Below are positions 42,301 through 45,300 of a DNA stretch of 64,000 nucleotides, one piece after another. Source of the DNA: Escherichia coli. Lineage in GTDB: Bacteria; Pseudomonadota; Gammaproteobacteria; Enterobacterales; Enterobacteriaceae. The stretch's first letter is position 1, and each line of letters opens with the position of its first letter. The position numbers are program-made. Where the stretch lies: NCBI RefSeq assembly GCF_011045215.1, contig NZ_CP049201.1. The stretch is one strand, 5' to 3'.

Positions 42301-45300
42301 TCGGGATATATGCGCCCTGGCAAAAGAGTATGAGATCGCCATGCTGTTGGTGACTAAAGGTGCAGAAGGGGTGGTGGTCTGTTATCGAGGACAAGTTCAC
42401 CATTTTGCTGGAATGTCTGTGAATTGTGTTGATAGCACGGGGGCGGGAGATGCGTTCGTTGCCGGGTTACTCACAGGTCTGTCCTCTACGGGATTATCTA
42501 CAGATGAGAGAGAAATGCGACGAATTATCGATCTCGCTCAACGTTGCGGAGCGCTTGCAGTAACAGCGAAAGGGGCAATGACAGCGCTGCCATGTCGACA
42601 AGAACTGGAATAGTGAGAAGTAAATGGCGAAGTCGCTCTTATCTCTAAATAGGACGTGAATTTTTTAACGACAGGCAGGTAATTATGGCACTGAATATTC
42701 CATTCAGAAATGCGTACTATCGTTTTGCATCCAGTTACTCATTTCTCTTTTTTATTTCCTGGTCGCTGTGGTGGTCGTTATACGCTATTTGGCTGAAAGG
42801 ACATCTAGGGTTGACAGGGACGGAATTAGGTACACTTTATTCGGTCAACCAGTTTACCAGCATTCTATTTATGATGTTCTACGGCATCGTTCAGGATAAA
42901 CTCGGTCTGAAGAAACCGCTCATCTGGTGTATGAGTTTCATCCTGGTCTTGACCGGACCGTTTATGATTTACGTTTATGAACCGTTACTGCAAAGCAATT
43001 TTTCTGTAGGTCTAATTCTGGGGGCGCTCTTTTTTGGCTTGGGGTATCTGGCGGGATGCGGTTTGCTTGACAGCTTCACCGAAAAAATGGCGCGAAATTT
43101 TCATTTCGAATATGGAACAGCGCGCGCCTGGGGATCTTTTGGCTATGCTATTGGCGCGTTCTTTGCCGGCATATTTTTTAGTATCAGTCCCCATATCAAC
43201 TTCTGGTTGGTCTCGCTATTTGGCGCTGTATTTATGATGATCAACATGTGTTTTAAAGATAAGGATCACCAGTGCGTAGCGGCGGATGCGGGAGGGGTAA
43301 AAAAAGAGGATTTTATCGCAGTTTTCAAGGATCGAAACTTCTGGGTTTTCGTCATATTTATTGTTGGGACGTGGTCTTTCTATAACATTTTTGATCAACA
43401 ACTTTTTCCTGTCTTTTATGCAGGTTTATTCGAATCACACGATGTAGGAACGCGCCTGTATGGTTATCTCAACTCATTCCAGGTGGTACTCGAAGCGCTG
43501 TGCATGGCGATTATTCCGTTCTTTGTGAATCGGGTAGGGCCAAAAAATGCATTACTTATCGGTGTTGTGATTATGGCGTTGCGTATCCTTTCCTGCGCGC
43601 TGTTCGTTAACCCCTGGATTATTTCATTAGTGAAGCTGTTACATGCCATTGAGGTTCCACTTTGTGTCATATCCGTCTTCAAATACAGCGTGGCAAACTT
43701 TGATAAGCGCCTGTCGTCGACGATCTTTCTGATTGGTTTTCAAATTGCCAGTTCGCTTGGGATTGTGCTGCTTTCAACGCCGACTGGGATACTCTTTGAC
43801 CACGCAGGCTACCAGACAGTTTTCTTCGCAATTTCGGGTATTGTCTGCCTGATGTTGCTATTTGGTATTTTCTTCTTGAGTAAAAAACGCGAGCAAATAG
43901 TTATGGAAACGCCTGTACCTTCAGCAATATAGACGTAAACTTTTTCCGGTTGTTATCGATAGCTCTATATCCCTCAACCGGAAAATAATAATAGTAAAAT
44001 GCTTAGCCCTGCTAATAATCGCCTAATCCAAACACCTCATTCATGTTCTGGTACAGTCGCTCAAATGTACTCCGGATACACGGTTCGCTGATTTCCAGGA
44101 CATTGTCGTCATTCTGCGACCTGTCCCGTGTATCACGGGCCTGCGAATTCATCAAGGAATGCATTGCGGAGTGAAGTATCGAGTCACGCCATATTTCGCT
44201 ATCAGGATTCTGTGTGATGGTTACATCGCCCGGCCCAGGGCTGTTTAGTCATCAGCGCTTTCTGACAGTGCTGAGATTTCAACCTGTTGCAGTAAAAATG
44301 AGTAGATATAAGGCAAATGTGCTGCCAAACCCATCTTTGACGGGGTGAAGGTAGATTTCGTTTGAAGGGTATCTGGTGTCCCCTGCAGGAATCGAACCTG
44401 CAATTAGCCCTTAGGAGGGGCTCGTTATATCCATTTAACTAAGAGGACAATGCGGCATGAGTATACCCGCTAATGGACTGCGGGGTAAGTACGCTGCCGC
44501 TCGATTGCTTAAACCCTCGCCATTTATGCCGGGTTTTTATCATTTTTCTTAATGTTTTCCGCACGTTCTGCTTTTTGGCGTGCTTCTGCTTTGCGCTTGT
44601 TGCTCATGTCGTTACGAATCTGTGCATGACTCATTAACGCGAAGATAAAGGTGCCGCCGCAGATGTTCCCCGCTAAAGTAGGTAGTGCGAAGGGCCAGAT
44701 GAAATCGCTCCAGTGCAGCGTACCGTTAAACACCAGATAGAGGATTTCAACAGAACCGACAACGATGTGAGTGGTGTCACCCAGGGCAATAAGCCAGGTC
44801 ATCAATATAATCACCACAATCTTTGCCGCACCCGCTGCAGGAAACATCCATACCATAGTGGCGATCAGCCAGCCGGAAATGATCGCGTTGGCAAACATCT
44901 CGCTGGGGGTGTTCTTCATCACATCCATGCCGATTTTGACAAATGCATCGCGAGTTTCTTCATTGAAGATAGGCATATATTCAAATGCCCACGCCGCAAT
45001 ACCTGTCCCGAGAATATTACCCAGCAGCACGACGCCCCATAACCGCATAAGTAAGCCAACGTTGCTCATTGTCGGTTTTTGCATGACGGGTAGTACCGCA
45101 GTCACGGTGTTTTCGGTAAATAATTGCTGGCGGGCCATAATGACGATAATAAAACCAAAGGTATAACCGAGATTCTCCAGCAAGAAGCTGCCCGGCACAC
45201 CTTCCAGTTCGACATGAAATATCCCTTTTGCCAGTAATGAAGCGCCCATCGACAGACCCGCCGCAATGGCTGACCACAGTAGTGCCATTGCGTCGCGTTC

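What the first reader, a model, noticed from the sequence alone, without database searches (positions are those of the whole stretch)
43933..44448. argW-proximal 440-bp non-coding stretch with no integrase: the tRNA integration hotspot is empty of prophage
The 3' end of tRNA-Arg(CCU) is a classic integration site, occupied by a prophage with a P4-type integrase in K-12. Here only about 440 bp with no ORF of 60 aa or more separates cscB from argW. I could not find a duplicated tRNA 3'-end sequence at the far (dsdX) side of the island. This may be an ancient scar, and it could still hold a degenerate att site or a small RNA.
Basis: seen in the sequence. Interest (0 to 1): 0.3.

Follow-up and report, generated by a model that had tools for sequence, protein, structure and literature searches.

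The report
Empty argW site with gene relic
The 441 bases between the sucrose permease gene cscB and the tRNA gene argW are an unoccupied phage-integration site, and most of the stretch is the decayed stub of a genomic-island gene; about half of sequenced E. coli carry the same stretch, so it is ordinary.

Summary
tRNA-Arg(CCU) lies at 44374-44448 on the minus strand, cscB ends at 43932, and the gap is 441 bp with no ORF above 52 aa. The window has no integrase homology and no second copy of the argW 3' end.

The gap is not featureless. Window 44012-44323 (minus strand) is a decayed fragment of a DUF4942 gene. It corresponds to about codons 32-151 of 281 and has a roughly 54-nt internal deletion, a frameshift and stops. 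Intact DUF4942 genes close the conserved YeeP...CbeA-CbtA-DUF5983 module of CP4-type integrative islands.

The gap is present in 2644 of 5426 complete E. coli genomes, always joined to cscB. In about 1414 it abuts argW directly, as here. In others an IntS-type prophage sits between the two, leaving a 15-23-nt att duplicate on the gap. Homology to K-12 breaks exactly at the tRNA 3' end and inside dsdX, which is the known csc-for-dsdCX replacement at the argW hotspot.

Alleles of the gap diverge 2.5-3.9% (one near-identical pair 0.5%), against 0-1.3% for the csc genes, and the stub's reading frame is not conserved. Rfam finds only the tRNA and folding is unremarkable.

Verdict: a vacant attB next to a neutral island relic. 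Already known; low interest.

The parts
44374..44448 (-). argW, tRNA-Arg(CCU), intact; its 3' end abuts the gap
   Evidence: ARAGORN; Rfam tRNA model, 63.4 bits
44374..44396 (-). attB core for IntS-type integrases, present once and therefore unoccupied. The first 15 nt (44374-44388) are the reverse complement of CTGCAGGGGACACCA, the KplE1 core. Lysogens duplicate 15 nt (TUM13936; K-12 pawZ) or 23 nt (O157).
   Evidence: Sequence; duplicate lengths in L001, L002 and L004; published 16-nt core CTGCAGGGGACACCAT (PMC2951348); single copy in the window
44324..44373 (.). 50 bp next to the tRNA, origin unknown. It resembles neither the DUF4942 gene nor the argW-proximal flank of four other haplotypes.
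   Evidence: 16/50 ungapped identity to the DUF4942 gene, which is chance level; no local alignment to the K-12, O157, B2 or P4-like flanks
44012..44323 (-). Decayed DUF4942 (PF13708) pseudogene, about codons 32-151 of a 281-codon gene. It has a roughly 54-nt internal deletion, a frameshift and in-frame stops, and both ends are missing. It reads away from argW.
   Evidence: Pfam E 9.8e-9, 35.6 bits against a cut-off of 25, profile positions 7-62 of 190. Family HMM positions 85-151 of 281, E 1e-21, plus a weak colinear piece at 37-70. DNA matches to a full-length gene: 44029-44229 at 72%, E 2e-33, and 44258-44323 at 73%, E 1e-7. tblastn 50% identity, E 5e-19.
43933..44011 (+). cscB 3' flank holding an inverted repeat (11-nt arms at 43942-43952 and 43975-43985, 22-nt loop). 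It has no U-tail, so it is not a canonical intrinsic terminator.
   Evidence: the repeat finder pair I3; the terminator scan found nothing here
38816..44373 (.). The whole csc replacement segment (cscR, cscA, cscK, cscB and the gap), which has no K-12 counterpart. Its left breakpoint lies inside dsdX and its right breakpoint lies exactly at the argW 3' end.
   Evidence: blastn against K-12: homology ends at 38815 and resumes at 44374; gene names from the annotation of L001 and L002

Best explanation
The stretch is the chromosomal flank of an unoccupied argW attachment site, and most of it is dead DNA.

Shown:
- argW is intact and its 3'-terminal core, the site used by IntS/KplE1-type integrases, occurs once. 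No prophage is present.
- In other strains the same flank carries a 15-23-nt att duplicate, with an IntS prophage between it and argW.
- Window 44012-44323 is a fragment of a DUF4942 gene, truncated at both ends, frameshifted and internally deleted. In intact form this gene is the last gene of the conserved module of CP4-type integrative islands.
- The gap, cscB and the dsdX breakpoint travel together as one haplotype in about 49% of complete E. coli genomes.

Inferred:
- A CP4-type island once lay at argW, reading away from the tRNA as such islands do. Deletions removed its integrase and body and left the DUF4942 stub.
- The csc genes either lay distal to that gene as cargo or replaced the distal part later. 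The same series of events removed dsdC and most of dsdX.
- The stub now evolves neutrally. The only working element at this position is the att core inside argW, which remains available for integration.
For: - Anatomy.
- Single att core.
- No integrase homology.
- Population: the gap is in 2644 of 5426 genomes. The cscB-gap junction is in 2627. The dsdX'-csc junction is in 2687. The gap-argW junction is contiguous in 1414.
- Lysogens: the gap plus a 15- or 23-nt argW duplicate, then prophage, intS and argW.
- K-12: homology breaks exactly at 44374 and 38815, and CPS-53 with pawZ is annotated there.
- DUF4942 identity.
- Context of the intact gene, YeeP-DUF905-DUF932-Antirestriction-RadC-DUF987-CbeA-CbtA-DUF5983-DUF4942.
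- Relaxed constraint: four of five compared alleles of the gap diverge 2.5-3.9% from the window, against 0-1.3% for cscA, cscK and cscB. The open stretch is 78 aa in three alleles and is cut to 58 or 50 aa by a stop in three others. Database versions are called at 44-99 aa with different starts.
- Literature: csc sits at the argW recombination hotspot and replaces dsdCX (PMC3032704, PMC11251922, PMC4366372). The KplE1 core is in PMC2951348.
Against: - The historical part is inference. No integrase stub, no second att site and no other CP4-module gene survives in the window to prove that an island was integrated here.
- The 50 bp next to argW match nothing.
- The stub is only 50-54% identical in protein and at most 77% in DNA to any full-length DUF4942 gene found, so its source lineage is unidentified.
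- Expression was not tested. Higher divergence than in the coding neighbours does not by itself rule out a short functional element.
Confidence: 0.85

Rival explanations
1. The DUF4942 stub is a domesticated small protein of 50-78 aa, as PGAP's 'DUF4942 domain-containing protein' calls of 60 aa imply.
For: An open stretch of 78 codons exists in the window and in two other alleles. PGAP annotates a 60-aa CDS in many genomes. The fragment passes Pfam's gathering score.
Against: It covers only positions 7-62 of the 190-position domain. In the window the first usable start gives 50 aa. Three of six alleles carry a premature stop. Called lengths and starts vary from 44 to 99 aa. Many genomes have no CDS annotated under the match. 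Only one promoter-like site was found in the 1-kb scan, which is no more than chance.
Confidence: 0.03
2. The gap encodes a small RNA or a regulatory 3' UTR of cscB, or the terminator region of argW.
For: An 11-bp-arm hairpin lies just after cscB. The plus strand folds slightly better than shuffled sequence, z -2.3. A weak terminator-like site lies on the minus strand at 44326-44312, downstream of argW.
Against: Rfam finds nothing except the tRNA at E<=1. The minus-strand z-score is -1.5. Terminator and promoter counts are at chance level. The region diverges several-fold faster than its coding neighbours. It is absent from half of E. coli, including K-12.
Confidence: 0.06
3. A degraded prophage or integrative element is still present at argW in this window, so the site is not really empty.
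For: Some csc+ strains do keep IntS N-terminal 'Arm DNA-binding' stubs of 200-280 bp between the gap and argW, so such relics occur at this site.
Against: In the window the gap abuts the tRNA with no extra DNA, and the junction is identical in layout to about 1414 genomes. There is no integrase homology and no att duplicate. The yfdC side is colinear with K-12.
Confidence: 0.02

Closest known systems
The variable argW-dsdCXA / cscRAKB region of E. coli (Jahreis et al. 2002; Moritz and Welch 2006; reviewed in PMC11251922, PMC3032704 and PMC4366372)
   Same: Same locus and same layout: dsdA, a truncated dsdX, cscR, cscA, cscK, cscB, then argW, yfdC. It is present in about 49% of complete genomes, which fits the reported distribution: csc near-universal in phylogroups B1, D and E.
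   Different: Nothing differs in kind. This strain simply has no prophage at argW. The two primary papers are not in the held library, so I could not check whether they describe the DUF4942 stub.
attB of KplE1/CPS-53 and other IntS-type argW-integrating phages (PMC2951348, PMC3509656)
   Same: The 15-nt core CTGCAGGGGACACCA at the tRNA 3' end is intact. The same flank forms attR in lysogens.
   Different: The site is unoccupied here. The base after the core is G rather than the T of the K-12 16-mer. The DNA beyond the core is unrelated to K-12's pawZ-dsdC spacer.
Distal module of CP4-type integrative islands (YeeP, DUF932, antirestriction, RadC, CbeA/CbtA, DUF5983, DUF4942), as in CP4-44 and CP4-57 and many pathogenicity islands
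   Same: The stub is homologous to the DUF4942 gene that ends this module. Like the module, it reads away from the tRNA.
   Different: Only about 40% of one gene survives. No other module gene, integrase or att repeat is present. Identity to known members is low: 50-54% in protein and 72-77% in DNA.

Membership tests
Unoccupied tRNA attB (argW, IntS/KplE1-type) | Intact tRNA gene carrying the core sequence at its 3' end | tested here: met
   tRNA-Arg(CCT) at 44374-44448. The core CTGCAGGGGACACCA is read from the sequence and matches the published core.
Unoccupied tRNA attB (argW, IntS/KplE1-type) | Core present once, with no direct repeat bounding an insert | tested here: met
   The 15-mer and 20-mer with up to 3 mismatches each give one hit in 64 kb.
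Unoccupied tRNA attB (argW, IntS/KplE1-type) | The same flank is joined to an att duplicate in strains that carry the prophage | tested here: met
   In L001 the gap is followed by 15 nt of argW, and in L002 by 23 nt, then the prophage, intS and argW.
Unoccupied tRNA attB (argW, IntS/KplE1-type) | Competent for integration by a cognate integrase | not testable with these tools
   This needs an integration assay.
DUF4942 (PF13708) protein gene | Significant match to the family profile | tested here: met
   Pfam 35.6 bits against a cut-off of 25; family HMM E 1e-21.
DUF4942 (PF13708) protein gene | Complete domain and intact reading frame (about 281 aa) | tested here: not met
   Only profile positions 7-62 of 190 are matched. 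There is a frameshift, stops and a roughly 54-nt deletion. The frame is cut short in three of six alleles. It is a pseudogene, not a member gene.
CP4-type integrative island | Integrase next to the tRNA, a direct repeat at the far end, and the YeeP...CbtA module | tested here: not met
   No integrase homology and no repeat. The segment 38816-44373 holds only csc genes according to the annotation of near-identical loci. Only a relic of the island is present.
Known small RNA or cis-regulatory RNA family | Match to an Rfam covariance model | tested here: not met
   Only the tRNA matches, apart from a spurious sub-threshold hit over the tRNA itself.

The most novel reading that the evidence does not exclude
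The DUF4942 stub may mark how E. coli acquired csc. In this reading the sucrose genes arrived as distal cargo of a CP4-type island that integrated at argW, and later deletions removed the integrase, the island body, the far att site, dsdC and most of dsdX. That would make the common csc+/D-serine-negative haplotype a fossil integrative island rather than the product of an unspecified 'recombination hotspot'. A smaller possibility is that the stub or the gap yields a functional micro-protein or small RNA.
Probability: 0.25. Interest if true: 0.25.

Novelty: already known. Interest (0 to 1): 0.1.

Why it matters
It matters little. The csc-for-dsdCX replacement at the argW hotspot and phage integration at argW are both well documented, and about a quarter of complete E. 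coli genomes have this same empty junction.

The one small addition is that the 'non-coding' gap is mostly a decayed DUF4942 gene. That gives a concrete, testable hint that the csc haplotype descends from a CP4-type island. It also flags the 60-aa 'DUF4942 domain-containing protein' calls in RefSeq as pseudogene fragments. Practically, the strain has a free argW attB for IntS-type phages.

Tried and rejected
- Integrase remnants: tblastn with K-12 IntS, O157 IntS, a P4-like integrase and a phage integrase found nothing in the window.
- Att duplicates: none found with up to 3 mismatches. The dsdX-side junction sequence shows nothing att-like.
- Phage similarity: the only four 'phage' hits are prophage-region records that include the host flanks from yfdC to cscA, not phage DNA. 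PMC11251922 notes the same four records.
- Extending the pseudogene to the tRNA: the 50 bp at 44324-44373 are at chance identity to the DUF4942 gene.
- Flank comparison: the argW-proximal flank was compared with the K-12 attL and attR flanks, the O157 attL flank, the B2 upaE island flank and a P4-like element flank. No similarity was found. The apparent 10-nt extension is 7/10 matches.
- Other species: a codon-degenerate 30-mer from the stub, scanned across 100,044 species-representative genomes, gave 0 hits. No less-decayed copy was found that way.
- The match to only the first 79 bp in strain L7_E1373 is explained by an ISEc46 insertion with a deletion, not by a module boundary.
- Rfam, promoter and terminator scans and folding gave nothing above background.
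- Moritz and Welch 2006 could not be read, and a title search did not bring up Jahreis et al. 2002.

Full report
**Observation**

ARAGORN finds tRNA-Arg (anticodon CCT) at 44374-44448 on the minus strand, so its 3' end points at the gap. The 415-aa ORF at 42685-43932 is the sucrose permease cscB, judged from the annotation of near-identical loci in other genomes. The gap is therefore 43933-44373, 441 bp.

The longest ORFs touching the gap are 52, 50, 44 and 43 aa. The last 15 and the last 20 nt of argW occur only once in the 64-kb window, even with three mismatches allowed. tblastn with four integrases that use argW in other strains finds nothing in the window at E<=1e-3. An ORF-free 441 bp is not unusual in itself.

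**The gap across E. coli**

- The 441 bp occur in 2644 of 5426 complete E. coli genomes, once each in nearly all, at 94-99.5% identity.
- The cscB-gap junction is intact in 2627 genomes.
- The breakpoint at the other end of the csc segment, inside dsdX, is intact in 2687. The gap, the csc genes and the dsdX truncation therefore form one haplotype.
- A 400-bp probe centred on the tRNA 3' end is contiguous in 1414 genomes. So about half of the csc+ genomes have the same empty junction as this window.
- In many of the others a prophage sits between the gap and argW. In strain TUM13936 and in an O157:H7 strain the gap is followed by 15 or 23 nt duplicating the argW 3' end, then prophage genes, intS and the intact tRNA.
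- The 15 nt are the published KplE1/CPS-53 core, CTGCAGGGGACACCA (PMC2951348).
- Against K-12, homology stops at 38815 (inside dsdX) and resumes exactly at 44374 (the tRNA 3' end). K-12 instead has CPS-53, the 15-nt pawZ copy, dsdC and full dsdX there.

This is the known replacement of dsdC and dsdX by cscRAKB at the argW hotspot (PMC3032704, PMC4366372, PMC11251922).

**What the 441 bp contain**

PGAP annotates a 60-aa 'DUF4942 domain-containing protein' under the match in many genomes. The evidence for a DUF4942 relic in the window is as follows.

- The minus-strand translation of 44012-44200 matches Pfam DUF4942 at 35.6 bits (cut-off 25), but only profile positions 7-62 of 190.
- A search of 1.84 billion representative proteins finds full-length relatives of 261-281 aa at up to 54% identity. 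The fragment aligns to their residues 84-151.
- An HMM built from 68 full-length members aligns positions 85-151 of 281 at E 1e-21. It also aligns a weak colinear piece at positions 37-70 in another frame.
- At the DNA level a full-length gene (L009) gives two colinear matches. Window 44029-44229 matches at 72% (E 2e-33) and 44258-44323 at 73% (E 1e-7). About 54 nt are missing between them.
- The closest full-length genes found by DNA search in the plasmid collection reach 77% identity.

So 44012-44323 is a DUF4942 pseudogene. It lacks its first 31 or so codons and its last 130 or so, and it carries an internal deletion, a frameshift and stops.

The 50 bp next to argW (44324-44373) match neither this gene (16/50 identity) nor the argW-proximal flanks of four other haplotypes. 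The 79 bp after cscB hold an inverted repeat with 11-nt arms and no U-tail.

**Where DUF4942 genes normally sit**

Two contigs encoding a full-length member show it as the last gene of the module YeeP GTPase, DUF905, DUF932, antirestriction, RadC, DUF987, CbeA, CbtA, DUF5983, DUF4942. From my own knowledge, this is the conserved distal module of CP4-type, tRNA-integrated islands such as CP4-44 and CP4-57, and it reads away from the tRNA and integrase. The stub in the window also reads away from argW.

I infer that a CP4-type island once occupied argW in the ancestor of the csc haplotype and was then almost entirely deleted. Whether csc was its distal cargo or a later replacement cannot be decided here.

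**Is anything functional in the gap?**

- Four of the five compared alleles of the gap differ from the window by 2.5-3.9%. The fifth, from strain TUM13936, differs by 0.5%. cscA, cscK and cscB differ by 0-1.3% in the same comparisons.
- The stub's open stretch is 78 codons in three alleles and is cut to 58 or 50 by a stop in three others.
- Database versions are called with different starts and lengths of 44-99 aa, some fused to unrelated sequence.
- Rfam finds only the tRNA.
- Promoter-like and terminator-like sites are at chance frequency.
- Folding z-scores are -1.5 and -2.3.

This fits neutral decay. It does not exclude a short transcript, which only expression data could settle.

**Mechanism**

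The working element is the att core inside argW, which IntS-type integrases recombine with a phage attP. The lysogen structures show this, and the literature describes it. In this strain the site is vacant and presumably available, but that is an inference. The rest of the gap is a relic.

**Comparison with the known, and verdict**

The locus is the known argW/csc/dsd variable region, and the att site is the known KplE1-type attB. The stub is a pseudogene of a known family. It fails membership as a DUF4942 gene because the domain is incomplete and the frame is broken. The segment fails membership as an island or prophage because it has no integrase, no repeats and no module.

Novelty: already known. 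Interest: low. The only modest addition is the island-relic reading of the gap, together with the point that the RefSeq 60-aa DUF4942 calls here are pseudogene fragments.

Noticed in passing
L003 4328-5764 and L012 925-1120 (GenBank ON470608.1, 'Escherichia phage vB_EcoS-733R5'): This 'complete phage genome' record includes host DNA from yfdC to cscA. Its prophage sits on the 5' side of argW. The yfdC side keeps the host promoter plus only tRNA nucleotides 1-27. The copy next to the gap is a full tRNA whose 5' end is phage-derived (one mismatch), and the integrase gene faces the tRNA 5' end. This is the opposite polarity to the usual replacement of the tRNA 3' end, and it implies that the rebuilt tRNA depends on a phage-borne promoter.
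   Followed up: partly
window 46686-47954 (minus strand): A 422-aa ORF in a low-GC patch (0.30-0.35), beyond mlaA on the side away from yfdC. It has no Pfam match. A hypothetical protein of identical length is annotated at the same position in strain L7_E1373 (L013), between mlaA and fadL; K-12 has yfdF next to mlaA instead. It is probably horizontally acquired.
   Followed up: partly
L005 1-700 (Logan SRR23081432 contig): In this sample, homology to the gap stops inside the DUF4942 stub at about window 44224/44225. Unrelated sequence follows, encoding small ORFs, one of which is fused in frame to the stub (99-aa product). This is a second rearrangement breakpoint inside the gap.
   Followed up: partly
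L008 3186-3391 and L013 8842-9123: Some csc+ strains keep only a 200-280-bp N-terminal 'Arm DNA-binding' stub of IntS next to argW. One of them also has an ISEc46 (IS200/IS605) element that deleted most of the gap. These show stepwise prophage decay at this site.
   Followed up: partly
window 38816-39046: 231 unannotated bp lie between the dsdX breakpoint and cscR, at the other edge of the csc segment. There is no att-like sequence at the junction. A distant DNA search of the plasmid collection returned only other copies of the same E. coli locus.
   Followed up: partly
L006 1-12000 and L007 1-12010: Other argW haplotypes were seen. B2 strain ATCC 25922 has the integrase-less ipuA/ipuB/upaE island. 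Strain AVS0247 has a P4-like satellite element (integrase, P2-family capsid gene, DUF927 protein gene) between argW and dsdC. All haplotypes diverge exactly at the tRNA 3' end.
   Followed up: no
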